A stretch of 25,920 nt of DNA from a virus, in the UHGV virus genome UHGV-0142838. One strand, 5' to 3'. Below, one piece after another: positions 596 through 11,839 of the stretch (position 1 is its first letter; every line of letters starts with the position of its first letter). The notes under the pieces were generated by a model that worked only from the letters and a program-made list of their open reading frames with translations, made no database searches and was not told where the DNA came from. Both the position numbers and the translations under genes were made by a program.

Positions 596-2974
596 TCATA
601 TTTTATTTAAGTTATTCTTTTTTAATGTCATCTCTAGTTCTTCGATACGTCTTTCTATATTATCAATTCTCTCCCAGCATTGCTGAATTGATTTAACAAT
701 AGGTGGGATAAACTCATCGTAACCGAGTGAGTAAACATCATCCCCACCATTTTTCAAGTGATGCTGTAGCCCACCGAACTCAACACCTAATTTTTCACAC
801 AGTTTCAATACGTCCTGTGCAATAAACCAGTGATGGTATCGTTGACGTTTTTTACTGCCGTCAGGAGTTTTCTGCACTACTTCAAGATATTTTTCTTCGA
901 CATTCTCAATAGCTGATATAGTAATTCCATCAACATCTCGTTCTACTTTTTTTGGTACAATTCTTGTCTTTTCAATAACATCAATATAATCATCACGCAT
1001 ATCCCAGCGACCATCGACAGGACGAAGCCCAAGGATAAATTCAATCCCCAGCAAAGTATCTCGGATATCTGTTTTATCACGCGCATCAGATCTGTTTTGC
1101 ACAGTTCCATATACATATGTCGTTGTGGAAGAATTGCCAAGCTGCACCTGATTACTTCCTGACACCCTTGCATCATTGCCAACAGTTGTTGTGTTGGTAA
1201 GTGATGATGTGCTTTCCCCTGATTGAGTTAATCTACCTGAATTATGTCCAATAGCCGTGTTTAATGCGCCGGTTGTATTTGTGACAAGAGAGCCAGACCC
1301 AATTGCAACGTTACTGCTTCCCGATGTTGTTCCTTTTAATGCCTGCTGTCCAACCGCAACATTATTATCACCCGTTGCTGCTATAAGTGCCATGTGACCA
1401 ATAGAAACGGTAAATGAACCTAGCGTTTGAGTTTCACCGCATGCACCATAACCAATTACAACAACATTATCTGTAATTGTTGACTCGGTTGCCGCTCCAG
1501 CACCAATAACAACGCTTTCATTCCCGGCAAGATTCTTGCGCATTGCGAACATTCCAATGCCAACATTATCATGCCCAGTCCCTGTACCTGCTGCCTCCGC
1601 AGCACCAAGACAGTTTCCCGCTCTGTAGCCAACCATGGTGTTATTTGAACCAATAGAGAAGTCTCCGGCAAAAGAGCCTACGTATACACTATTAGACTGA
1701 GAGTAATCTCCAGGATTTCCATTCGCCCGATATCCTACTGCAACTGTATAAATAGTATCTGGAGCCTCAGCCATGGCCTCAAAGCCAACTCCAACGTTAT
1801 ATCTACCGCCCTTAACTTTTTCTCCTGCACCAAGTCCGAAGAATGAGTTATAGCTCCCGGTTGTTAGCCACTCGCCAGCAACAGAACCTACAGCAGTGTT
1901 TCCTGTTCCAGTACATCGATACAAAGTCAGGAAGCCAACTCCGGTATTATTATTTCCTGAAATATTACTCATCAATGATTTTGACCCAATGGCAGTATTG
2001 TTAACACCATCGGTCAGATCCTGTAACGCTCGCGGGCCAAATGCTGTATTATCGTAACCCTTTGGCGCTGTTGTTGGATCTGGTAACTCCGGGGTTAGTT
2101 TTTCACCACCACCACCATTGGCACAAAGATTGTAAGATCGAATAAATTCAGCCACTGGCCCAAGTTTTAAATAACCATTGGCAATATTAATTCTGACACT
2201 TACATTAACTGAGCTACCAGGAGCTTCTATTGTCCTGTCATCAACCCAAGTAAAACTCTGTGGTACCCCGTCATAAGTTAATGTCACATCTCCTTTATCA
2301 TTATAATTATAGAACAATGTATAACGCTCATTTATAGATTCAGAACCTGATGAGCCTCCTCTCCTCCACCACTCTGCATTATCAAAAATAAGTAATCCTG
2401 GACCATAATATTTTCCCTTCTGACCCAAGATCATAGGAGTCGATAATCGCCACCTTCCCTCTGGAACATATACATCGATCCCAGTTCTTTCTGCGTCTTT
2501 AAACGATTCATCACATAATAAAACACCACCTTCAACAGCACCAAATCCACGAACATCACCATTATCTCTCCATCGAGCAATTTGCAACTCAGGATACTTC
2601 TTAGCGCCATCAATGTCTTCTAATTGGTCCCGCAGCTGATCAGGATCATACTTCAGTACATTAGGAAAATAGAACTGCTGAGCACCGTAAGCATCATATA
2701 CAGCCATAGAATGGCCTTGCACAGTTACGAACTTGGCAATCTGTCCGTTATATACAGGGTAACCAGCAGCGTTAAGGATGATTGGTTGTGAAACAGGAAT
2801 GTGAGAACCATCTTCACTCTCTACATAAACCTGAATCTGGTTTTCAGGATTTACCGGGTCAGTGTCAATTTTACCGATATAAATTTTGCCATTAGCTACG
2901 GCTTTAAAAGAGCGAGCCATAGTGAAGAGTTGCGATGGCATCCCAATTACAACATTTGTGGTTATATTAGGCAT
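596..2974 (-). CDS. Tailspike / tail fibre: P22-type N-terminal head-binding domain, glycine-rich repeat central region, C-terminal intramolecular chaperone (peptidase S74-like)
   Basis: ORF track 596..3067. Residues [17 protein letters not shown]...[26 protein letters not shown]...[15 protein letters not shown]...NVLKYDPDQ closely match the P22 gp9 N-terminal domain as I recall it. Central region has repeated N-T-A-I/V-G / G-x-x-A motifs. C-terminus has S-D-A-R-D-K, the S-D-x-x-x-K spacing of the endosialidase/T5 pb1 chaperone family. Start chosen at ATG 2974 (AGGA 8 nt upstream, aligns with P22 MTDITANVV); the longer 3067 start has no SD. Confidence 0.85.
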
Positions 2975-3319
2975 ATTAGTCATCCTGTTTGAAAACTTAG
3001 AAATTGAATAAAAAGGAATGACTGCAGACAAAGATGCAAGTGTTTTGAAAAATAATCTTCTATTCATTTTAAATCATGCAACACAAACAAAACGATTATT
3101 TTACAGCGTGCATGAATCTTGATCAACAGGCATATATTTTAATTGCTGAATACGTCACTTAAAAATGACAAGTACTACTTTTATTCCTATCATCCATGAT
3201 TTTAATTTTCAAATATTATTAAATAACAATTCCTATTTATAATATCTGTCATTTAATTTGCTCCAGATACAAGTAATCGCTGCAGCGTGGCAGCAGTGAA
3301 ACATTATCAATCATACAAC

Positions 3320-3336
3320 AAGACCACCGTGGTCTT
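3320..3336. promoter_or_regulatory. 17-bp perfect palindrome AAGACCAC-C-GTGGTCTT; candidate Mnt operator
   Basis: Seen in sequence: 8-bp arms around a central C, 63 bp upstream of the mnt start. Resembles the 17-bp symmetric P22 mnt operator (core CCACGGTGG) as I recall it. A -35-like TTATTG (3335-3340) and -10-like TAATAA (3358-3363) with 17-bp spacing overlap the right arm; these promoter calls are inference. Confidence 0.5.
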
Positions 3337-3398
3337 ATTGAGGATGCAACCAGCAGATAATAAGATGCCGATCCACTCACAAAAGCGAGGCATCAAGA

Positions 3399-3650
3399 AT
3401 GGGAAGAGATGACCCGCAATTTAATCTGCGGCTACCTTACGAATTAAAGGAAAAACTAAAACAGAGAGCCAAATCCAATGGCCGCTCTCTTAATTCAGAA
3501 TTAGTTCAGATAGTGACTGATGCTGTATCAAAGCCATCCAAAATTTCAGGCTATCGAGACGATGCGGAACGCATCGCTGATGAGCAGTCCGAACTTGTTA
3601 AGAAGATGGTGTTTGATACGCTGAAGGATTTATACAAAAAACCCACCTGA
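3399..3650 (+). CDS. mnt: Mnt-type ribbon-helix-helix repressor (Arc/MetJ superfamily)
   Basis: 83-aa product MGRDDPQFNLRLPYELKEKLKQRAKSNGRSLNSELVQIV...AERIADEQSELVKKMVFDTLKDLYKK matches P22 Mnt in length and along most of its sequence (from memory). Opposite strand to the late genes, as in P22. Confidence 0.9.
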   Translation: MGRDDPQFNLRLPYELKEKLKQRAKSNGRSLNSELVQIVTDAVSKPSKISGYRDDAERIADEQSELVKKMVFDTLKDLYKKPT

Positions 3651-3659
3651 TGGTGGGTT
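3640..3659. terminator. Hairpin terminator between convergent mnt and lipoprotein gene
   Basis: Seen in sequence: AACCCACC-TGAT-GGTGGGTT, perfect 8-bp stem with 4-nt loop. The mnt stop codon TGA is the loop. On the minus strand it is followed by TTTTGTATA, so it is convincing for the 3667-4086 gene; the plus-strand U-tract is weak. Confidence 0.6.
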
Positions 3660-3666
3660 CCATTCA

Positions 3667-4086
3667 TTAGTCTTGCTTTGTGGACGGTATAAGGGATGCA
3701 TTTGCCTCTTTAGGCTTCAAGGTATACATCCCACCATTAAATGGATCTACAGCAAGCCAACCAATTAACCCACCAAACACAAGGTTTCCACCAATATACC
3801 AACCATTAGCATTGGCTTTGATTGGAAGGGTAACTGGTTCGTACCCATCCTTCTCCATAGTGATCTGGTAGCTCTTTTTGCCAAAATAGCTACCATCTGA
3901 CTTGGCGAGTGTTACACCTTGTGGAGTCTTACCTTGCGCAACAATCACACCCGATTCATCTTTTACCTTAAAGGTCGCGCCAGAAGGATTGCTGTTCACC
4001 TGCACAAGTTGCGTTTCATCACCAACAATAGTTGCGCACCCAGATAACATGATAACGCCAGCAACAACGCCGATAATCCTCTTCAT
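3667..4086 (-). CDS. Lipoprotein with PEGA-like domain and glycine-rich hydrophobic C-terminal segment; function unknown (moron)
   Basis: 139-aa ORF. N-terminus MKRIIGVVAGVIMLSGC is a signal peptide with lipobox L-S-G-C. VNSNPSGATFKVKDESG...GKTP fits the PEGA pattern. C-terminal WYIGGNLVFGGLIGWLAVDPFNGG is glycine-zipper-like. Sits where P22 has sieA/hkcC; AT-rich relative to the structural genes. Confidence 0.7.
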   Translation of the reverse strand: MKRIIGVVAGVIMLSGCATIVGDETQLVQVNSNPSGATFKVKDESGVIVAQGKTPQGVTLAKSDGSYFGKKSYQITMEKDGYEPVTLPIKANANGWYIGGNLVFGGLIGWLAVDPFNGGMYTLKPKEANASLIPSTKQD

Positions 4087-4220
4087 ATTACTTTCCGTTT
4101 TGTTAGAATCAGAAAGATCTTAATAATAAAAAGTATTTCCGTGAAGATATTGTCGATTGAGTTAATAACTCATTTACACCCAACAGTGCCATGATGGCAA
4201 AGATAAGGAGAGTTAATCAT

Positions 4221-4706
4221 ATGAAAAAATCACTGTTAATTATCCCGCTTCTGCTGGCAGGGTGTGCAAAGGTTAGCGACTATCAGGCAAGTTGCGAACA
4301 ACGCTATCCAAAGCTTAGCGATATGGCTAATTGCCTTGATGCCAGTGTGAAGAACGACTCACGCATGGCATCTTCACCAATACCTAAGCTGTATGTCCTT
4401 GCTGCAAAGATGCTCGGGCAAGGTGTTGATGAAGGTAAGATAAGTGACGCACAGGCAAGACTTGAGCTTCAGAATCTTTATGTTCAACTACAAAGCCAAG
4501 AACAAGCCCAACAAATAGCGCAAAGCCAAGCATTCCAGCAGGCTTTATTGAATTATCAGGCTGTAAACACAATGCAAGCGATCGAGCAAAAAGCGAGACA
4601 GCCTGTTATAACTCAACCCTATCCAACACGAGTTGACACTTACACAAACTGCAATTCAGGGTTTGGGAATACAGTCACATGCAACAGTAGCAGTAACATC
4701 AGATAA
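4221..4706 (+). CDS. Lipoprotein with cysteine-containing N-terminal part and Q-rich predicted helical region; function unknown (moron)
   Basis: ORF track 4191..4706; start placed at ATG 4221 (AAGGAG at 4205-4210). MKKSLLIIPLLLAGC is a signal peptide with lipobox L-A-G-C. Q/A-rich stretch LELQNLYVQLQSQEQAQQIAQSQAFQQALLNYQAV. Divergent from the 3667-4086 gene; I recognise no family. Confidence 0.65.
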   Translation: MKKSLLIIPLLLAGCAKVSDYQASCEQRYPKLSDMANCLDASVKNDSRMASSPIPKLYVLAAKMLGQGVDEGKISDAQARLELQNLYVQLQSQEQAQQIAQSQAFQQALLNYQAVNTMQAIEQKARQPVITQPYPTRVDTYTNCNSGFGNTVTCNSSSNIR

Positions 4707-4796: not shown

Positions 4797-6794
4797 CTAT
4801 TCTGACAACGCATCAGACTTAGCCCCCTGCGTCAGAGTGTTAATTGCTTTTTGTGCCTGCTGCATTGCTTTCTCAAAGGCTGTTGATCCGCGTGGGGTGT
4901 TTGCCATTCGGAGCATTGCATTTCTGAATGGCTTGCTCTCATAGGCGCGAGTAAGAAGTCCGTAGCTTACTGCTGCGCCAGTTGTCACCGGGTTCATTGC
5001 CGTCCCATACCCAATAATGAACGGGATAGTTTGCTGCCCTGTGGGTGTTGTTACTGCCGCTTTTGCAGCCTGCTGCGTGGATTGCAGGTAGTTTTTTAAT
5101 CCTTTCAGATAAGCAGCGTCCTGCCCCTTAAATGTGATGCCAGTCTGGTTTTGCAGGATGTTAAGCTGCCGAAGGAACTGGTCAGGGGATCCGCCAGATT
5201 TCTCCATCGCCTTTCCAATGATGCCATTGCGCATTTGCGCCCTGCCAACACGACCAACTGAGTTATATAGCGTCTTAATTTCCGATTTGTTCTTGCTGAA
5301 TAGCATGTTGTTGACAACTTCCGGCGTCAGGTCGCCTTTCATGAGAACATTCTTCAGCCTGGTATTCTTTAGTTTCGCCGCTTCGTCAGCGTAGACGGCA
5401 TTGGCCTGCTGATATTTACGGAGAGTATCGTTGCCAAGATTCTGACCAATGGCACCATTGATATCGTCAGTCATTGCCTTGTAAACGCGCTGAATAGCAG
5501 CATCGGAACGGTTTGGTAACACTGGTCGCTCACCCTTCACGTCCATTCTGAACTGGCTGCGCAGGTCGCTTAATTGCTTCAAATCCAGATTTACCGGACC
5601 ATCAGGGCCAGCATTGCGAACAAGCTCATCACGATATGACTGAAGTTTTGAAATTGTCTCGTTATCAGCTACCTTACCAAGCTTCTGCAGATTAGATATC
5701 TCAGTATCAATCTGCTGAATTGCTCGCGCAGGCTGGATATTGACTCCCGCCATTGCATTCTGAACCTGCTCAAGACGGTTCCCTGCGGCACGACGAATTC
5801 CTGATGTTTTCGCTTTAAGGCTGTCAATAACAACCGCTGGATCATACTCACCGAATTTATCGGCAAATCTCTGCACCAACTGGCTTCTCGCTTCCTGTTG
5901 CGTTGCTCTCATTCCGCTTGTGCCAGCCAGAGGGATATTTTCTGCTGTAGTCTGCGCCATTTTTCCGACGCGGGAAGTGGGTTGTAACAGGTCTGTGGTG
6001 TGCAGAGGAACTCCTTCACGCTCTGCAAATCTGATAGCCTGCTGCGCTTCTGGCGCAATAGCACCACTAACGCCACGATAAGCAGCACCTAATCCACGTC
6101 CAGCAGCGTTAATAGCGCCGCCTGCCAGAACGCCAACACCTAAATCGGTGGCGAGGGCTTCCGCATCATCTTTCGCACTATTTGCAGCAAGTGACCCGAC
6201 TGCGTTTTCAGCGAGAAGGCGAGTTGCACCCTGAGCGATTCTACCAGCTAGTGTTGGTGCCTGTGCCGCCGCTCTCTCAACGCCAGCAGGAGTGAGGTAA
6301 GGCAATGCTTCAGCAAATACCCTTCCCTCTGTCGTTTGTGGAGTCAGCGCGCCTTGCTGAAGGCCAAAGTCCTGCTCTAATCCCTGCGTTGTTACTCGTG
6401 GCGCTGGTTGATATGTACCATCGCCAATGCCGAGTTTACCGCCAGCCCAAGCCGCCGCGCTTGTTACAGCATCGGCAACTGATGCGGGTATGTTTGCCAC
6501 GTTCACGCCAGCCTGCGCCAGTCCGCGACCAGTCTCTTTTACTGCTTCGCCAAGATCAGACATAAATCCACTTTGCTGTGGTTGTTGCTGTGCTACTGGT
6601 TGCTGTGTCTCCACTTGCTGCGCAGATGGCAATGGATAGGCAGCATAGAAAGCTTGCTTGGCCTGCTCTGCATTTTCTCCGGCTTGCGGGGCAACGACTT
6701 CATTGAAGTATTGCTCCTGAGCCTGCGCTTTTTGTTCTGGTGCTAACGCCTGATACTGTGGAGAGGCGATAACATCTTTCCATGCTTTAGCCAT
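4797..6794 (-). CDS. Ejection (DNA-injection) protein, P22 gp16 / Sf6 gp13 position
   Basis: 665-aa ORF, last of three genes after the gp14-like gene, as in the P22 order 14-7-20-16. Start overlaps the upstream stop. Assigned mainly by synteny and size. Confidence 0.7.
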   Translation of the reverse strand: MAKAWKDVIASPQYQALAPEQKAQAQEQYFNEVVAPQAGENAEQAKQAFYAAYPLPSAQQVETQQPVAQQQPQQSGFMSDLGEAVKETGRGLAQAGVNVANIPASVADAVTSAAAWAGGKLGIGDGTYQPAPRVTTQGLEQDFGLQQGALTPQTTEGRVFAEALPYLTPAGVERAAAQAPTLAGRIAQGATRLLAENAVGSLAANSAKDDAEALATDLGVGVLAGGAINAAGRGLGAAYRGVSGAIAPEAQQAIRFAEREGVPLHTTDLLQPTSRVGKMAQTTAENIPLAGTSGMRATQQEARSQLVQRFADKFGEYDPAVVIDSLKAKTSGIRRAAGNRLEQVQNAMAGVNIQPARAIQQIDTEISNLQKLGKVADNETISKLQSYRDELVRNAGPDGPVNLDLKQLSDLRSQFRMDVKGERPVLPNRSDAAIQRVYKAMTDDINGAIGQNLGNDTLRKYQQANAVYADEAAKLKNTRLKNVLMKGDLTPEVVNNMLFSKNKSEIKTLYNSVGRVGRAQMRNGIIGKAMEKSGGSPDQFLRQLNILQNQTGITFKGQDAAYLKGLKNYLQSTQQAAKAAVTTPTGQQTIPFIIGYGTAMNPVTTGAAVSYGLLTRAYESKPFRNAMLRMANTPRGSTAFEKAMQQAQKAINTLTQGAKSDALSE

Positions 6795-8089
6795 TAATCA
6801 CCCCATAGTGAAGAAAAGTTACTGCCAGTAGTAGATTGTTGCCCTGGCATATTCTGTACTGGCTCCTGATAATCAAACTGTTTTTTAACAGTGCTCAACT
6901 TGCTTTCAAGCTGATTTCTAATCTTTCCGATAGAGTCACGAAAAGCCTTTTCACTCATTTTGGGGCTTAGGGCACCAACCGCATCGGATAATTTTTTACC
7001 CTCAGCATCTGAAAGAGCGCCCATTCCCTTCAGGGACTGCACCATAGGAAGGAATGTTTGAGCTTTAAAGGTGTCGAGCCTTGCTTCAAAGTTAGCCGCA
7101 TCAGAGCCAGGAACTGTCGGAAACGCTGAGCGAATTCCTACTGCTTTTGAAAGGCCGGGGCTTTGCTCTATCTCGTTGAGAGAATCAAGCGCGGTGCTGA
7201 ACGTATCAACTGCACCCTGAGCGGCGGCCTGCCTGTCAGCGCGGGCTATGTCAGCCTTTTGCCGAACATCTGCCTGTTTCTGTTTTAGCTCTTCAAGCTT
7301 TAACTGATTGCTTTCTCTGGCTATCTGTCTGTCCAGAGCCTTTTCTTGTAATTCTGCTCTTTGTATTTCGCGGGAAAGAGCAGCATTCTGTGCGCTGATG
7401 TTCTGTCCACGTATCTGGATGTCCTGACCACGCGCTGTTAGTGCTTCTCCAGCCTGATTGCTGCGGATTGTCTCTGCCAGTCTGCCTCGGTCAATCTCAC
7501 GACCAGCCATCTTGTCCTGAACATTGAAGTAGTCAATCGGACCGAGAGCAGCCATCCCAAGGTGATCAACAAACTCACCAAATCCTGAAGGGTTTTGCTG
7601 ATACATCTGAGCAACGCTGTTAGGGTCAACACCGACGCGAGTCAGTTCCTTGGCGTTGTTTTGCAGCCATGATTGCATTGCTTCTGGAGACGATGACGCA
7701 AGGCGTGCGCCAGCCGCTAAGGTGCCGATAGAATTACGCTGCTCTTCATCAATGAATCCCATGCCTTTACGAACGGATTCAATCTGGTCTGGATATTGAG
7801 TAGCCAACTGACGCAAAGCACCGCGATCACCAGACGCATAAGCATTAGCGTATGCCTGCTGAAATTCTTTCTGCCGCTGAGCCTGCTTTTCCTGCTGAAA
7901 CACCCCTGCAATACCTGAAAGGCCTTGCAAAGCAGTCAGCCCAACATTGTTAGCGCCTGAACGCTCAATATCATTGTTCTGCCTGATAAGCTGAAGCGTA
8001 TTGCCGATGTCATTTACGCTCGGAGCGTTTGAGTTGACGCCGCCGATACCAGCCAACAATCCGCCGTTTGTTCCTTGCCAAGTAGCCAT
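6794..8089 (-). CDS. Ejection protein, P22 gp20 / Sf6 gp12 position
   Basis: 431-aa ORF; synteny within the P22-like ejection cluster; coiled-coil-like central region. Confidence 0.7.
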   Translation of the reverse strand: MATWQGTNGGLLAGIGGVNSNAPSVNDIGNTLQLIRQNNDIERSGANNVGLTALQGLSGIAGVFQQEKQAQRQKEFQQAYANAYASGDRGALRQLATQYPDQIESVRKGMGFIDEEQRNSIGTLAAGARLASSSPEAMQSWLQNNAKELTRVGVDPNSVAQMYQQNPSGFGEFVDHLGMAALGPIDYFNVQDKMAGREIDRGRLAETIRSNQAGEALTARGQDIQIRGQNISAQNAALSREIQRAELQEKALDRQIARESNQLKLEELKQKQADVRQKADIARADRQAAAQGAVDTFSTALDSLNEIEQSPGLSKAVGIRSAFPTVPGSDAANFEARLDTFKAQTFLPMVQSLKGMGALSDAEGKKLSDAVGALSPKMSEKAFRDSIGKIRNQLESKLSTVKKQFDYQEPVQNMPGQQSTTGSNFSSLWGD

Positions 8090-8098
8090 GATTACCCC

Positions 8099-8791
8099 TT
8101 AAAACAACGAGCCAAGCAATCCGATACCAGCACCAATGCCAGCGCCCCAAGGCGTTGATGTTCCCAAAAGGCTGGCAAGACCTGCACCGGCAATCGCACC
8201 AGACGTGCCGCCGCTAATTGCAGTCTGAAGACTTGATGGTTTATTGGCATTAGCAGCGGCAAGTGCTGCGCTTTGCTGTGCAATGCTGCTCATGTTGTTG
8301 GCGTACGTCTGCCCGGCGTTTGCCTGACCTTGCAGCGCACCAAGCCCAACGTTTGCCAGATTGTTGTAATTGCTCATCTGATTTGATAACCAAGACTGAC
8401 CGAGTGTCGGCGCGATCGTAGCCAGTTGATTGCTTGTGGCTGTCGAACCAAGGCCACCAGTCGCCTCCGCAGCAGCAAGACTCTGGTAACGAGCCTGACC
8501 TGCAAGGTCTTTATACTGCTGAGAGTTGTAATACTGATTAAGTGCCTGCCCCTGACCTTCTAAACTGGAAAGATTCTGAAGCTGGTTAACATACTGCTCC
8601 GCAAGCGGCGTGAACGGAGCAAGGTTTTTCATGATCGTCTGCCACTGCTGATTTTGCAGGTCTGCGGCATACTTCTGAGCTTCTGCTGCATACTTTGCGC
8701 TTTTATCAGAGCTGCCACCTTTCCCGCCTTTTTCAGGGCAATAAGGTTCCTCGCCACGCAGTTTTCTGCCTAGCTTAAATGCATATAACAT
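8099..8791 (-). CDS. Ejection protein, P22 gp7-like
   Basis: 230-aa ORF beginning MLYAFKLGRKLRGEEPYCPEKGGKGGSS, which matches the P22 gp7 N-terminus as I recall it (229 aa); Gly/Ala/Gln-rich remainder. Confidence 0.8.
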   Translation of the reverse strand: MLYAFKLGRKLRGEEPYCPEKGGKGGSSDKSAKYAAEAQKYAADLQNQQWQTIMKNLAPFTPLAEQYVNQLQNLSSLEGQGQALNQYYNSQQYKDLAGQARYQSLAAAEATGGLGSTATSNQLATIAPTLGQSWLSNQMSNYNNLANVGLGALQGQANAGQTYANNMSSIAQQSAALAAANANKPSSLQTAISGGTSGAIAGAGLASLLGTSTPWGAGIGAGIGLLGSLF

Positions 8792-8793
8792 GG

Positions 8794-9249
8794 CTATCTC
8801 CTGTGATTCAGGAAGTCGATTAGTTCTTCGCGTGTGGCGCTGTAAAACGTCACGTCATCCACGCCTTTGAAGTATTTCTTGATGGTTCCTACACGCTTAA
8901 GGCCAATCATTGCGCAGTACATCTGCCCGTGGCGGAATTTGCGTGCAGCGAACGATGTGACGCACTGAACGGTGGTGTTAGTCAGAATGTATCGCCAGAA
9001 CGCCAGCCCGATTTCCTTGCTGAATCCGCGAATCTCTGGCAGGTACATGGCGTGGCAATCGAATGTAAGCGGCTGAATCTCCTGATAGTAAACAATGCCG
9101 CCGAACTGCCCGTGCACGTTCACCTCAAAGTAACGGCAATCAGGTTTGTAGTCGTATCCATCACCGTTGTTGCTCCCGGCAATAATGTCAGGGTGATTTC
9201 CTACTGCTTCGATCAGGTCGATGTTTCGCGTTGGTTTGAATGTAATCAT
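8794..9249 (-). CDS. P22 gp14-like protein
   Basis: 151-aa ORF between the tail needle and ejection genes; assigned by synteny. Confidence 0.65.
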   Translation of the reverse strand: MITFKPTRNIDLIEAVGNHPDIIAGSNNGDGYDYKPDCRYFEVNVHGQFGGIVYYQEIQPLTFDCHAMYLPEIRGFSKEIGLAFWRYILTNTTVQCVTSFAARKFRHGQMYCAMIGLKRVGTIKKYFKGVDDVTFYSATREELIDFLNHRR

Positions 9250-9950: not shown

Positions 9951-11368
9951 TACTCAATCCTTATCTGGCAGCCAGACAGAGTGACAGGTGACTTCGTGAT
10001 AACGCGCAATTTGAAGCCGACATTTTTCCTGATGCGCCCGACTCGCTTCCACAAAACGCGTTTGTCGTAAACGAACGGTTCATTCTGCTCAATCATCTGC
10101 TCACGCCCGTAATTGATGCCGTCAGTGGTTGCAGAGAGGAACAGGCGGTCTGCGTACTGCGCAACGCCAGTTGAAGATTCAACCTCAAGGTCGAACACCC
10201 GGGCGTTATCCGCTTTGAACAACGGAGTAAACAGCAGGTGTTCCTGCTGCTTGTCGTACTGGCTGCTGATATCGAACTGCAATTTCCCGGTCACGGATTC
10301 CAGCTTATCGCCGCACGTTATCTGATTGCCTTCGTAAATGAAGTCGATAGCGCGGTACACATCGTCATACAAGCCAGTTTTCAACACACACCATTGCGGA
10401 CCATTGGCGCTTGAAGATGCGTCGTACACGAGAACATGGCGCGGAAGGTGGATAATCAGCAACTCATGAGCATCAAATCGCAGCGATTCCATCACACCAT
10501 CAGCCAGCTCATCAGCAGTGTAGGAGCGGAGTATTTTCTCAATGCTCGCGCTGGCGATTGGTGATACCTGACCGGAACCGATGATGTACACAGACGGCGC
10601 ACCTGTTGCCGGATTGCTGATGAACGCATAAGAATCAGCGAATGGCGTTTTGCAGTAAGTCCCGGCAATGCCTTTCTGCACCATCAGCGATGGCTGTGCG
10701 ACATACAGAGCAGCACCAACAGTGGTTGCACCAGTCAGGGAGAAATATTCAATAGTCGATGAACCAAAGCAGACGATGAAGTCTCGCCATGTCCCGATAC
10801 CGATGATTCCGTCCGGCTGCGATTCTGCGCGATATTGTGCGCTGTAGCGGTCAGGATGCGATTCGTCTTCAAGGTCAGTGATAAACCATGAATCAGTTCC
10901 GTCTTTTGACCACGCATAACGCCCACGTAAGCGCGTAATGTCGCGAACCGAACCTAACTCATACTGCGTGAATCCGCTGTCTGCAGGCCAGTTTGAGACG
11001 GTTTTAACCGTGCCATCATAGCGATACTCAACCAGTTGACCATTAACGCCTACAGCCTGAGATGTTCGACCATGCGCCATTGATACGCGACCACTTCCGG
11101 CGACGTCACCGACTTCGCTTTCGCCTTTGTAGAGCTTGCCGCCACACACACGATAGACAGCATTCTGCGCCATGTTGTACTCGACGCCGCGCGATACACC
11201 GTTCACATCAGAGCGTTTGGCAATGCCCGGGAATGAGCGAAGATATCCGCTGCTGTTCAGGATTTCTTTGGGGGTTGCCAACATATTCACTGGCAGATAG
11301 TCGATATAGTCGGCGTTTCGAAAGTCTTTGCCGACACCTTTCATAAGCGGAAGTTGCTGAATCGGCAT
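9950..11368 (-). CDS. Tail hub protein, P22 gp10-like
   Basis: 472-aa ORF, same length as P22 gp10, between the gp4-like and gp26-like genes. Confidence 0.8.
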
Positions 11369-11377
11369 TTATTCACC

Positions 11378-11839
11378 TCACGTACTCGGATCATCTTTCT
11401 CGATGTAAAACCGATTCCACGTAAACGCGCTTTTGTTACCACTACCGCGAGGCATGTCATTTCTCCGCTCAAGTGGTGGTATTTTGGTTAAAGCGATACA
11501 GATTGTCTGATATGCACTGTCAGCAGCGGTAAGGAGAGCGTCTGACGGCTGAATGACGTTATCCATGCACACTTGCACAGCGAGTTTCAAAGCGACGCCA
11601 TCATTTGCCCATGCAGGGATACCTGAATCATCGTCAGGTAACGGCATGATGCCGTTTTCTGTATCAGCAAACTGATACCCAAGCTCGATACCTTTTGCCT
11701 GCCATGCTGCCATCATGTCTTCGAGGTCATTAATGGCATCTTCAATTGCCTGAGGGTCAGCATCTGTCAACGTGGCATTGGAATACAGCCCGGCTTTTCG
11801 TAAAGCCTTAAGAACGAGATCACCCTTCGTTTTCGCCAT
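11378..11839 (-). CDS. Head-to-tail adaptor, P22 gp4-like
   Basis: 153-aa ORF immediately downstream of the coat region and upstream of the gp10-like gene; synteny with P22/Sf6. Confidence 0.75.
   Translation of the reverse strand: MAKTKGDLVLKALRKAGLYSNATLTDADPQAIEDAINDLEDMMAAWQAKGIELGYQFADTENGIMPLPDDDSGIPAWANDGVALKLAVQVCMDNVIQPSDALLTAADSAYQTICIALTKIPPLERRNDMPRGSGNKSAFTWNRFYIEKDDPST

What the first reader, a model, noticed from the sequence alone, without database searches (positions are those of the whole stretch)
3667..4706. Divergent pair of uncharacterised lipoprotein genes at the sieA/immI-equivalent locus
Between the last ejection-protein gene and the tailspike gene, where P22 carries sieA, hkcC and immI, this prophage has two back-to-back lipoprotein genes of opposite orientation that I cannot place in any family. 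One has a PEGA-like fold signature plus a glycine-zipper hydrophobic tail; the other has paired cysteines and a Q-rich helical segment. Both are AT-rich relative to the flanking virion genes, and the minus-strand gene has its own strong terminator. Envelope-located prophage morons at this locus are classic superinfection-exclusion or injection-blocking factors (SieA in P22; Cor and Llp in other lambdoid phages), so this pair is a candidate undescribed two-component envelope defence or exclusion module.
Basis: partly seen in the sequence, partly recalled or inferred. Interest (0 to 1): 0.7.

Follow-up and report, generated by a model that had tools for sequence, protein, structure and literature searches.

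The report
Two independent prophage lipoprotein morons
Two real, prophage-expressed outer-membrane lipoprotein genes of unknown function sit in the known variable "ant moron" of a P22-like E. coli prophage, but they are separate cassettes that usually occur apart, not a two-part defence system.

Summary
Gene A (3667-4086, minus strand, 139 aa) and gene B (4221-4706, plus strand, 161 aa) are divergent lipoprotein genes between the gp16-position ejection gene and mnt/tailspike of a P22-like prophage. Both have invariant lipobox cysteines, Ala at +2, and dN/dS of about 0.04-0.05. Published RNA-seq of the about 96% identical Gally prophage of E. coli LF82 shows both transcribed while neighbouring virion genes are silent.

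The "two-component module" reading fails. Among 5426 complete E. coli genomes, A is in 124 and B in 186, but only about 25 carry both. The identical A protein occurs with and without B.

B is restricted to P22-like phages. It always lies in the sieA slot and orientation, usually downstream of mnt. It shows no homology to SieA and has no membrane-spanning segments.

A has a PEGA/transthyretin-like beta-sandwich and a conserved glycine-rich hydrophobic motif. Its family sits in several moron slots of siphovirus and podovirus prophages, including both HK97 moron slots, and also in non-phage chromosomal sites.

Neither protein matches any characterised family, solved structure or PADLOC model. Best guess: independent envelope lysogenic-conversion genes. 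B is a plausible SieA-like entry blocker. A is either an exclusion factor or a Bor/Lom-like fitness factor. Interest is moderate.

The parts
3667..4086 (-). Gene A: a 139-aa lipoprotein precursor (lipobox LSGC, Cys17, Ala at +2). It has a PEGA/transthyretin-like beta-sandwich (residues about 25-93), a conserved Gly-rich hydrophobic motif (96-115) and a C-terminal beta-hairpin (121-131). It belongs to phrog_6823 and corresponds to epsilon34 gp15 and GALLYPH_14.
4221..4706 (+). Gene B: a 161-aa lipoprotein precursor (lipobox LAGC, Cys15, Ala at +2). It has an N-terminal helical bundle carrying C25 and C38, a Q-rich helix or linker, and a C-terminal hairpin carrying C144 and C154. It belongs to phrog_6067 and corresponds to GALLYPH_13 and vse13_014. 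The mechanical ORF starts at 4191, but the start supported by the Shine-Dalgarno sequence is 4221.
4087..4220 (.). Divergent A-B intergenic region, 134 nt and 31% GC. It must carry the promoters of both genes in this arrangement. Only weak sigma-70-like consensus matches were found, no more than expected by chance.
   Evidence: independent transcription inferred from the LF82 RNA-seq
3636..3661 (-). Intrinsic terminator of gene A: a 10-bp stem, 4-nt loop and U-run. It is bidirectional and overlaps the last codons of mnt. The equivalent site is annotated as a Rho-independent terminator in epsilon34.
3399..3650 (+). mnt: an 83-aa Arc/Mnt-family maintenance repressor, convergent with A. There is no arc or ant gene between it and the tailspike gene.
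4797..6794 (-). Last ejection-protein gene, in the P22 gene 16 position (665 aa, no Pfam hit). It is convergent with B, and 90 nt separate the two stop codons.
596..3067 (-). Tailspike gene. The P22 Head_binding domain covers aa 32-144 of the listed ORF. This gene is the other border of the ant moron.

Best explanation
**What it is.** These are two unrelated, independently mobile lysogenic-conversion ('moron') cassettes that happen to be side by side in the hyper-variable gene 16-gene 9 interval of a P22-like (Lederbergvirus) E. coli prophage.

**Shown at sequence level.** Each gene encodes a precursor with a classical lipobox and Ala at +2.

**Shown for the about 96% identical Gally prophage.** Both genes are transcribed from the repressed prophage.

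**Gene B (inferred function).** B occupies the slot and orientation that sieA has in P22 and HS1. It is confined to P22-like phages and is usually co-directional with and just downstream of mnt. I infer that it is a non-homologous replacement for SieA: a periplasm-facing lipoprotein that interferes with entry of superinfecting P22-like phages, for example with assembly of the gp7/gp20/gp16 ejection conduit. Probability about 0.4.

**Gene A (inferred function).** A belongs to a wider enterobacterial envelope-lipoprotein family that temperate phages have captured repeatedly. It has a beta-sandwich plus a conserved Gly-rich, probably membrane- or partner-contacting loop. It most likely modifies an outer-membrane component. 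That role is either exclusion of incoming phage (about 0.3) or a Bor/Lom-like benefit to the host envelope (about 0.45).

**The two proteins do not need each other.**
For: **Lipoprotein features and family conservation**
- Lipoboxes, invariant cysteines and +2 Ala are present in both families.

**Selection**
- dN/dS is 0.038 for A and 0.050 for B.

**Expression from the lysogen (PMC9928086, Tables S1 and S4)**
- GALLYPH_14 (A) reads log2(fpkm+5) of about 9.8-10.5 in DMEM and 9.4-11.0 in macrophages.
- GALLYPH_13 (B) reads 7.9-8.2 in DMEM and 8.5-10.3 in macrophages.
- The adjacent injection gene GALLYPH_12 reads 3.6-4.2.
- Even in stationary-phase LB the two genes are 3.3x and 4.5x the local background.

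**Independence of the two genes**
- Co-occurrence is low.
- The identical A protein occurs with and without B.

**B in the sieA slot**
- In P22 and HS1, sieA lies convergent with gene 16.
- B lies convergent with the gene-16-position gene in E. coli, Salmonella, Serratia, Morganella and Proteus phages, across several different gp16 types.
- In 77 IMG/VR loci the gene upstream of B is most often mnt on the same strand (29 loci) or other same-strand genes (27 loci).
- No type A or type B SieA is encoded in the window or in any fetched A or B locus.
- Every other occupant of this slot that I examined also looks membrane-bound or exported.

**A in moron slots of other phages**
- Homologues lie between the tail chaperone G/T gene and the tape-measure gene, and between tail genes I and J, of lambdoid prophages.
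- The HK97 record marks both of these slots as 'moron product'.
- Others lie next to the Q/antirepressor genes or the N/immunity genes.
Against: - There is no functional data for either family.
- Neither protein is homologous to SieA, HK97 gp15, Cor or any PADLOC model.
- Fold searches gave only generic beta-sandwich and helical-bundle matches.
- A has non-phage chromosomal relatives in Kosakonia and in a metagenomic 1.3-Mb contig. Remote relatives of B are chromosomal in environmental bacteria. The families are therefore not intrinsically anti-phage.
- Very strong purifying selection fits a conserved host target better than an arms race with rapidly diverging ejection proteins.
- The up-regulation in LF82 also covers mnt, the tailspike gene and GALLYPH_17. 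It may reflect regional derepression rather than dedicated control.
- Lipidation and outer-membrane location are predicted, not shown.
- The B structure model is of low confidence (pLDDT 65).
Confidence: 0.6

Rival explanations
1. One reading: A and B together form one two-component envelope defence or exclusion module. They would work as a complex expressed from a shared divergent promoter.
For: - The two genes are head-to-head with a 134-nt AT-rich spacer.
- Both are predicted to be outer-membrane lipoproteins.
- Both rise together in LF82 in DMEM and in macrophages.
- The arrangement recurs in about 25 E. coli genomes and in the phages Gally and vB_EcoP-720R6.
Against: - About 80% of A-carrying and about 87% of B-carrying E. 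coli genomes lack the other gene.
- The IMG/VR viral contigs show the same pattern.
- A pairs with at least four different neighbours on its start side.
- The identical A protein occurs with and without B.
- A also lives in siphovirus tail operons and in chromosomal sites, where B never occurs.
Confidence: 0.05
2. Host-fitness or virulence conversion in the manner of Bor/Iss or Lom/Ail. Under this model one or both lipoproteins strengthen or alter the outer membrane (serum, antimicrobial-peptide, bile or intramacrophage survival) and have nothing to do with phage entry.
For: - In the adherent-invasive strain LF82, A is up 14-fold and B 6-fold in macrophages compared with stationary-phase LB.
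- The A family has chromosomal members, one of them next to pmrD.
- Strong purifying selection fits a conserved host target.
- B is carried by prophages of EHEC O26, O104:H4 and ST131 strains, and A by O111 strains.
Against: - Expression is equally high in plain DMEM, so it is not macrophage-specific.
- B is strictly tied to P22-like phages and to the sieA slot in five genera. That is hard to explain by a general host benefit.
- The published LF82 work tested a deletion of mnt only; I found no knockout of these two genes in the papers searched.
Confidence: 0.3
3. A function in the phage's own lytic cycle. Examples are masking receptors on lysed-cell debris to protect progeny (a Llp-like second role) or acting as a lysis or spanin-like accessory.
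For: - There are weak matches to Rz-like spanin and Cor PHROG families, but they cover only the signal-peptide region.
- Both genes are embedded in or next to the late operon.
Against: - In the P22-like prophages both genes are set apart from the late operon: B lies on the strand opposite the late operon, and A has its own terminator.
- Both are transcribed when the late genes are silent.
- They are dispensable, since most P22-like phages lack them.
- The window has its own lysis genes elsewhere (by position and size in the ORF list; not scanned).
Confidence: 0.05

Closest known systems
P22 SieA (types A, B and C; Leavitt et al. 2024, mBio, PMC10883804)
   Same: B sits in the same genomic slot as sieA: immediately after gene 16 and convergent with it, on the mnt strand. 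B is expressed from the prophage and is restricted to P22-like phages of Enterobacterales. It is an alternative occupant of the slot, because no type A or B sieA is present where A or B is.
   Different: SieA is an integral inner-membrane protein with three or four membrane-spanning helices and the motif FxRYPxEAxxFNK. B is a lipoprotein with no membrane-spanning segment, no such motif and no detectable homology (hhalign probability 0.2%). No exclusion activity has been shown for B.
HK97 gp15 and the HK97 moron slots (gp15 and gp22)
   Same: Homologues of A in lambdoid prophages lie in exactly the two slots that the HK97 record marks as 'moron product': between G/T and the tape-measure gene, and between I and J. 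PMC10883804 cites gp15 as a prophage protein that blocks DNA injection.
   Different: gp15 is a 62-aa protein with an N-terminal hydrophobic segment and is not a lipoprotein. It shows no sequence similarity to A. The resemblance is positional only.
Cor (phi80/N15/HK022) and T5 Llp: outer-membrane lipoproteins that inactivate the receptor FhuA
   Same: They are small, prophage- or phage-encoded lipoproteins, predicted or known to reside in the outer membrane, and encoded beside tail genes.
   Different: Matches to phrog_1119 and NF047972 cover only the signal peptide and fall far below the cutoff (11.9 bits against 31). P22-like phages adsorb to O-antigen and not to FhuA (established knowledge). 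No target is known for A or B.
Lambda Bor/Iss and Lom/Ail: phage-borne copies of bacterial envelope protein families
   Same: These are morons expressed from the lysogen, and their families have both phage-borne and chromosomal members, as the A family does.
   Different: There is no sequence relationship: no Bor or other envelope-lipoprotein Pfam family matches at E <= 1. No serum-resistance or adhesion data exist for A or B.
PEGA / transthyretin-like (CarboxypepD_reg-like) beta-sandwich domains
   Different: The Pfam PEGA score is below the gathering threshold, and only 8 of 59 family members match at E < 0.01. The fold is generic and says little about function. The conserved Gly-rich C-terminal motif has no described family.

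Membership tests
Bacterial lipoproteins (Lgt/LspA/Lnt pathway) | N-terminal signal peptide ending in a lipobox [LVI][ASTVI][GAS]C, with the Cys conserved | tested here: met
   A has LSGC with Cys17 and B has LAGC with Cys15. The Cys is invariant in 59 and 58 homologues.
Bacterial lipoproteins (Lgt/LspA/Lnt pathway) | Actual diacylglyceryl modification and signal peptidase II cleavage; outer-membrane sorting | not testable with these tools
   Only the sorting rule could be applied. Ala at +2 (not Asp) predicts Lol export to the outer membrane.
Moron (independently expressed insert in a phage operon) | Present at a given position in some, but absent from other, closely related phages | tested here: met
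   A and B are each absent from most P22-like phages, and other genes occupy the slot in those phages.
Moron (independently expressed insert in a phage operon) | Transcribed from the repressed prophage, with its own transcription signals | tested here: met
   The LF82/Gally RNA-seq tables show A and B far above the flanking virion genes. A's terminator was confirmed. Promoters were not mapped.
Obligate two-gene module | The two genes co-occur and are co-inherited across genomes | tested here: not met
   In E. coli: A 124 genomes, B 186, union 285, both about 25. In IMG/VR: 16 of 80 and 15 of 77.
SieA superinfection-exclusion proteins | Gene lies between gene 16 and gene 9 of a P22-like prophage | tested here: met
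   B has the same slot and orientation as sieA in P22 and HS1.
SieA superinfection-exclusion proteins | Integral inner-membrane protein with three or more membrane-spanning helices | tested here: not met
   Apart from the signal peptides, no 19-residue window reaches Kyte-Doolittle 1.6 in A or B, whereas SieA has several.
SieA superinfection-exclusion proteins | Conserved motif FxRYPxEAxxFNK and detectable sequence similarity | tested here: not met
   The motif is present in P22 and HS1 SieA and absent from A and B. hhalign probability is 0.2%, and hmmsearch gives no hit at E <= 10.
SieA superinfection-exclusion proteins | Blocks DNA injection by P22-like phages | not testable with these tools
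   This needs plating, lysogenisation and K+ efflux assays.
Cor exclusion lipoprotein (NF047972 / phrog_1119) | Model score above the curated cutoff over the mature protein | tested here: not met
   A scores 11.9 bits against a cutoff of 31. The matches cover only residues 1-29, which is the signal peptide.
PEGA domain (PF08308) | Pfam score at or above the gathering threshold | tested here: not met
   A scores 18.0 bits against 20.8, and 8 of 59 family members match at E < 0.01.
PEGA domain (PF08308) | Transthyretin-like beta-sandwich fold | tested here: met
Glycine-zipper lipoproteins (SlyB/Pcp PF05433, Gly-zipper_Omp, Gly-zipper_YMGG) | Match to the family models | tested here: not met
   None of these families matched A at E <= 1. 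The Gly-rich segment is modelled with pLDDT below 50.
Known anti-phage defence systems (PADLOC-DB v2) | Match to any model | tested here: not met
   No hit at E <= 1 for A, B or Mnt.

The most novel reading that the evidence does not exclude
B would be the founding member of a new lipoprotein class of superinfection-exclusion proteins. In P22-like phages lacking sieA (two thirds of sequenced ones, per PMC10883804), it would block the ejection-protein conduit from the outer-membrane or periplasmic side. A would be a broad-host exclusion lipoprotein that both siphovirus and podovirus prophages deploy in the same slots as HK97 gp15. Stacked together in this prophage, they would give two layers of entry defence.
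Probability: 0.2. Interest if true: 0.6.

Novelty: new member of a known kind. Interest (0 to 1): 0.38.

Why it matters
- **A handle on P22-like DNA delivery.** Two thirds of sequenced P22-like phages lack sieA (PMC10883804). What fills that slot in them is uncharacterised. B is a common filler, present in 186 of 5426 complete E. coli genomes, including O104:H4, O26 EHEC and ST131 strains. If it blocks entry, it would give a second, mechanistically different handle on how the gp7/gp20/gp16 conduit crosses the periplasm.
- **A widespread uncharacterised family.** The A family has more than 700 protein clusters across Enterobacterales and Pasteurellaceae. It is among the more widespread uncharacterised prophage lipoproteins.
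- **A correction to the literature.** Both genes are among the most highly transcribed Gally prophage genes in the Crohn's-associated strain LF82 in DMEM and in macrophages. The published moron screen nonetheless concluded that Gally has no morons, because both genes fell just under its 5-fold cutoff in LB.
- **A correction for experiments.** They are not a pair, which changes how they should be tested: singly first.

Tried and rejected
- **Known families.** Pfam, NCBIfam, PHROGs and PADLOC scans gave only unknown-function PHROGs, a sub-threshold PEGA match and signal-peptide-only matches to Cor and Rz.
- **Solved structures by sequence.** Nothing was significant.
- **Fold searches.**
  - A against BFVD gave one unnamed relative.
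  - The afdb50 library was not available.
- **SieA and HK97 gp15 homology.** Rejected.
- **A and B as paralogues.** Rejected: only the signal peptide and lipobox align.
- **Two-component module.** Rejected by the gene distribution.
- **The A family as exclusively phage-borne.** Rejected after two chromosomal contexts were found.
- **Remote relatives of B.**
  - The profile search against the 50%-identity representative library found 265 clusters of small lipoproteins with the same Cys pattern, with no annotation and mostly from metagenomes.
  - The genome scan gave only two loci. The one I examined (Desulfatitalea) is non-phage.
  - None were found in IMG/VR.
  - The first genome scan, with too diverse an alignment, failed.
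- **Promoter scan of the A-B spacer.** No more matches than expected by chance.
- **Literature.** Searches by accession or locus tag and for PEGA lipoproteins in phages found no functional study.
Full report
**1. What is in the sequence**

The window is a P22-like (Lederbergvirus) prophage of E. coli, with its virion genes on the minus strand.
- The tailspike gene is at 596-3067. Its product carries the Head_binding domain.
- gp20 (Inj_translocase), gp7 and the DUF2824 protein lie further along.
- The 665-aa gene in the gene 16 position is at 4797-6794. Relatives annotate it as a P22-gp16-family ejection protein.

Four features lie between the tailspike gene and the gene-16-position gene:
- mnt, at 3399-3650 on the plus strand (Arc plus Repressor_Mnt domains).
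- A bidirectional terminator.
- Gene A, at 3667-4086 on the minus strand.
- Gene B, on the plus strand.

B's mechanical ORF starts at 4191. The ATG at 4221 has an AAGGAG Shine-Dalgarno sequence 7 nt upstream, and PGAP uses that start.

There is no arc or ant gene.

**2. The genes are real and encode lipoproteins**

A begins MKRIIGVVAGVIMLSGC-ATIV and B begins MKKSLLIIPLLLAGC-AKVS. Both have canonical lipoboxes followed by Ala at +2.
- A has 726 homologous protein clusters and B has 94.
- The lipobox Cys and the +2 Ala are invariant or nearly so in both families.
- Across 50 alleles of A and 54 alleles of B from viral contigs, the median dN/dS is 0.038 and 0.050.
- A's terminator is a 10-bp hairpin plus U-run at 3636-3661, with a folding energy of -15.6 kcal/mol. 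The same site is annotated as a terminator in epsilon34.
- A is 44.8% GC and B is 44.2%. The gp16-position gene is 51.4%, the virion block 50.6% and the tailspike gene 41.3%.

**3. Anatomy of the proteins**

*Protein A.*
- The AlphaFold model (pLDDT 77.5) has a confident beta-sandwich over residues 25-93.
- A low-confidence Gly-rich hydrophobic segment follows (96-115, WYIGGNLVFGGLIGWLAVDP).
- A confident beta-hairpin (121-131) then packs back on the sandwich.
- The Gly-rich motif and its flanks hold most of the family's invariant residues.
- The segment is not hydrophobic enough for a classical membrane-spanning helix.
- Pfam PEGA is below threshold.

*Protein B.*
- The model has pLDDT 64.9.
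- It shows a helical bundle over residues 18-100 (pLDDT about 80-87) with invariant C25 and C38.
- A Q-rich helix or linker follows, then a C-terminal hairpin with invariant C144 and C154.
- A profile search found 265 clusters of small lipoproteins that share the N-terminal domain and the C-terminal CxxGxxxxC-like motif. None has a Pfam family.
- Neither protein matches PADLOC, NCBIfam or any solved structure by sequence.

**4. Expression**

The locus is about 96% identical to phage Gally, the most active prophage of the adherent-invasive E. coli strain LF82. Misson et al. 2023 (PMC9928086) re-analysed RNA-seq from LB, DMEM and macrophages. The values below are log2(fpkm+5) from their Tables S1 and S4.

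| Gene | DMEM | Macrophages | Stationary LB |
|---|---|---|---|
| GALLYPH_14 (A) | 9.8-10.5 | 9.4-11.0 | 4.8-6.2 |
| GALLYPH_13 (B) | 7.9-8.2 | 8.5-10.3 | 6.0-6.3 |
| GALLYPH_12 (adjacent injection gene) | 3.6-3.7 | 4.0-4.2 | 3.6-3.9 |

- Macrophages at 6 h against LB gives a log2 fold change of 3.84 for A (q = 1.4e-31) and 2.55 for B (q = 4.7e-27).
- In LB the two genes were at 3.3x and 4.5x the local background, just under the authors' 5x cutoff. That is why the paper states that Gally has no morons.
- Both genes are therefore expressed from the lysogen. Because DMEM alone gives high levels, the induction is not macrophage-specific.
- mnt, the tailspike gene and GALLYPH_17 rise too, so a regional effect is possible.

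**5. Not a pair**

*Complete E. coli genomes (5426).*
- A is in 124 genomes.
- B is in 186.
- Either gene is in 285.
- The contiguous A+B block is in 24. By arithmetic (124 + 186 - 285) about 25 genomes carry both.

*IMG/VR viral contigs.*
- Of 80 A loci, 16 carry B. On its start side A is otherwise next to a 122-aa gene (21 loci), an hkcB-like gene (13), a 104-aa gene (4) or others.
- Of 77 informative B loci, 15 carry A.
- These contig counts are not independent events, but the pattern is consistent.

*Named phages and strains.*
- Epsilon34 has A without B (its gp15, next to the hkcB-like gp14).
- VSe13, the Proteus phage Brookers, the Serratia and Morganella prophages and the O104:H4 strain C227-11 have B without A.
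- The identical A protein, WP_000821222.1, is found with B in LF82 and without it in an O111:H8 strain.

**6. Genomic logic of B**

- B was found only in P22-like elements. It is always convergent with the gene in the gene 16 position and 59-100 nt from it.
- This holds across several different gp16 types and five genera.
- This is the slot and orientation of sieA in P22 and of the type B sieA in prophage HS1.
- In 77 loci, the commonest upstream neighbour of B is mnt on the same strand, about 95 nt away (29 loci).
- The next commonest are an ORF59a homologue on the same strand (18 loci), A on the opposite strand (15) and a 104-aa exported protein on the same strand within 60 nt (9).
- B is therefore normally part of the leftward, prophage-expressed mnt transcription unit. 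The A insertion seen in this window is a minority variant.
- No type A or type B SieA is encoded in the window or in any fetched A or B locus.
- B lacks SieA's membrane-spanning helices, its motif and any similarity to it.
- Every other occupant of this slot that I examined looks envelope-targeted:
  - SieA has several membrane-spanning helices.
  - The hkcB-like protein has an N-terminal membrane anchor plus a coiled coil.
  - The 104-aa protein has a cleavable signal peptide.
  - The 122-aa protein has a signal-like N-terminus.
- Leavitt et al. 2024 (PMC10883804) showed that SieA blocks injection and that escape mutations map to the C-termini of gp16 and gp20. They also found that only 22 of 66 P22-like phages carry sieA.

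**7. Genomic logic of A**

In P22-like prophages A sits tail-to-tail with mnt, sharing the terminator. Homologues at 55-80% identity are found in several other places:
- Between the tail chaperone G/T gene and the tape-measure gene of HK97-like and lambda-like prophages of E. coli and Proteus.
- Between tail genes I and J.
- Next to the Q and antirepressor genes in Actinobacillus.
- After the N gene in an Arsenophonus prophage.

The HK97 record marks the G/T-H slot (gp15) and the I-J slot (gp22) as 'moron product'. PMC10883804 cites gp15 as an injection blocker.

Two family members are in ordinary chromosomal neighbourhoods:
- One in Kosakonia, beside pmrD, frmR and a transporter gene.
- One in a 1.3-Mb metagenomic contig.

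Villafane et al. 2008 (PMC2629481) also noted that epsilon34 gene 15 matches many bacterial genes. A therefore follows the Lom/Bor pattern: a bacterial envelope-protein family repeatedly captured as a phage moron.

**8. Interpretation**

*Shown.*
- Two real lipoprotein genes, expressed from the lysogen and under purifying selection.
- They move independently.
- They lie in a locus already described as a rapidly changing moron.

*Inferred.*
- Outer-membrane, periplasm-facing location, from the +2 sorting rule.
- B as a functional replacement for SieA, from its slot, orientation, phage-type restriction and mnt linkage. I put this at about 0.4.
- A as a modifier of the outer membrane whose benefit may be exclusion (about 0.3) or host fitness (about 0.45).
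- The strong purifying selection and the chromosomal relatives argue for conserved host targets rather than direct recognition of fast-evolving phage proteins.

**9. Novelty and verdict**

- The genes are already in databases as hypothetical proteins (phrog_6823 and phrog_6067; epsilon34 gp15 was noted in 2008). The locus type is known.
- No functional study was found.
- This is best filed as new, uncharacterised members of a known kind, prophage envelope morons, and not as a new two-component system.
- Interest is moderate. The hypothesis that B replaces SieA, the breadth of the A family and the missed moron call in LF82 are all worth a simple experiment.

Noticed in passing
window 3068-3650: mnt is intact, but no arc or ant gene lies between it and the tailspike gene. 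The 331-nt spacer is 33.5% GC. This is an 'orphan' Mnt, as in phage Gally. What it represses here is unclear.
   Followed up: partly
window 596-3067 (minus strand): The listed tailspike ORF has about 30 extra N-terminal residues: the Head_binding domain starts at aa 32, so the true start is probably an internal Met. By eye, the C-terminal ~120 residues resemble an S74-type self-cleaving chaperone domain. The gene is longer than Gally's (823 against 799 codons).
   Followed up: partly
L002:4654-4977, L019:4161-4475, L020:5059-5427, L021:2274-2768, L188:30463-31101: Every alternative occupant of the slot next to gene 16 looks envelope-targeted. SieA has several membrane-spanning helices. The hkcB-like protein has an N-terminal membrane anchor plus a coiled coil, the same architecture as HK97 gp15. 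The 104-aa protein has a cleavable signal peptide, and the 122-aa protein has a signal-like N-terminus. This suggests that the slot specialises in envelope functions.
   Followed up: partly
LF82 Gally prophage (L001/L004), published Tables S1 and S4 of PMC9928086: The paper concludes that Gally carries no morons. In its own tables GALLYPH_13 and GALLYPH_14 are at 4.5x and 3.3x the local background in LB (the cutoff was 5x). In DMEM and macrophages their fpkm values are roughly 15-fold (GALLYPH_13) to 150-fold (GALLYPH_14) those of the neighbouring virion gene.
   Followed up: yes
L005, L007, L008 (about 10260-11420): The lambdoid E. coli prophages that carry an A homologue between the tail chaperone and tape-measure genes also carry a porin gene (Porin_1/Porin_4) between tail genes M and L. 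This is a second envelope moron in the same tail operon.
   Followed up: no
L189:3685-5411: A chromosomal, non-phage A homologue in Kosakonia lies about 1 kb from pmrD. Together with the induction seen in macrophages, this is a possible lead towards PhoP/PmrA-linked envelope remodelling.
   Followed up: no
L191 (about 7543-9044): The Arsenophonus prophage that carries an A homologue after its N gene also encodes a Ser/Thr protein kinase and PP2C phosphatase pair just downstream of a second N-like gene.
   Followed up: no
L188:40288-49001: In E. coli HS, the P22-like prophage HS1 is followed by an HsdM-like methyltransferase gene and a BREX-1 system (brxA, brxB, brxC). A defence island therefore abuts the prophage.
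   Followed up: no
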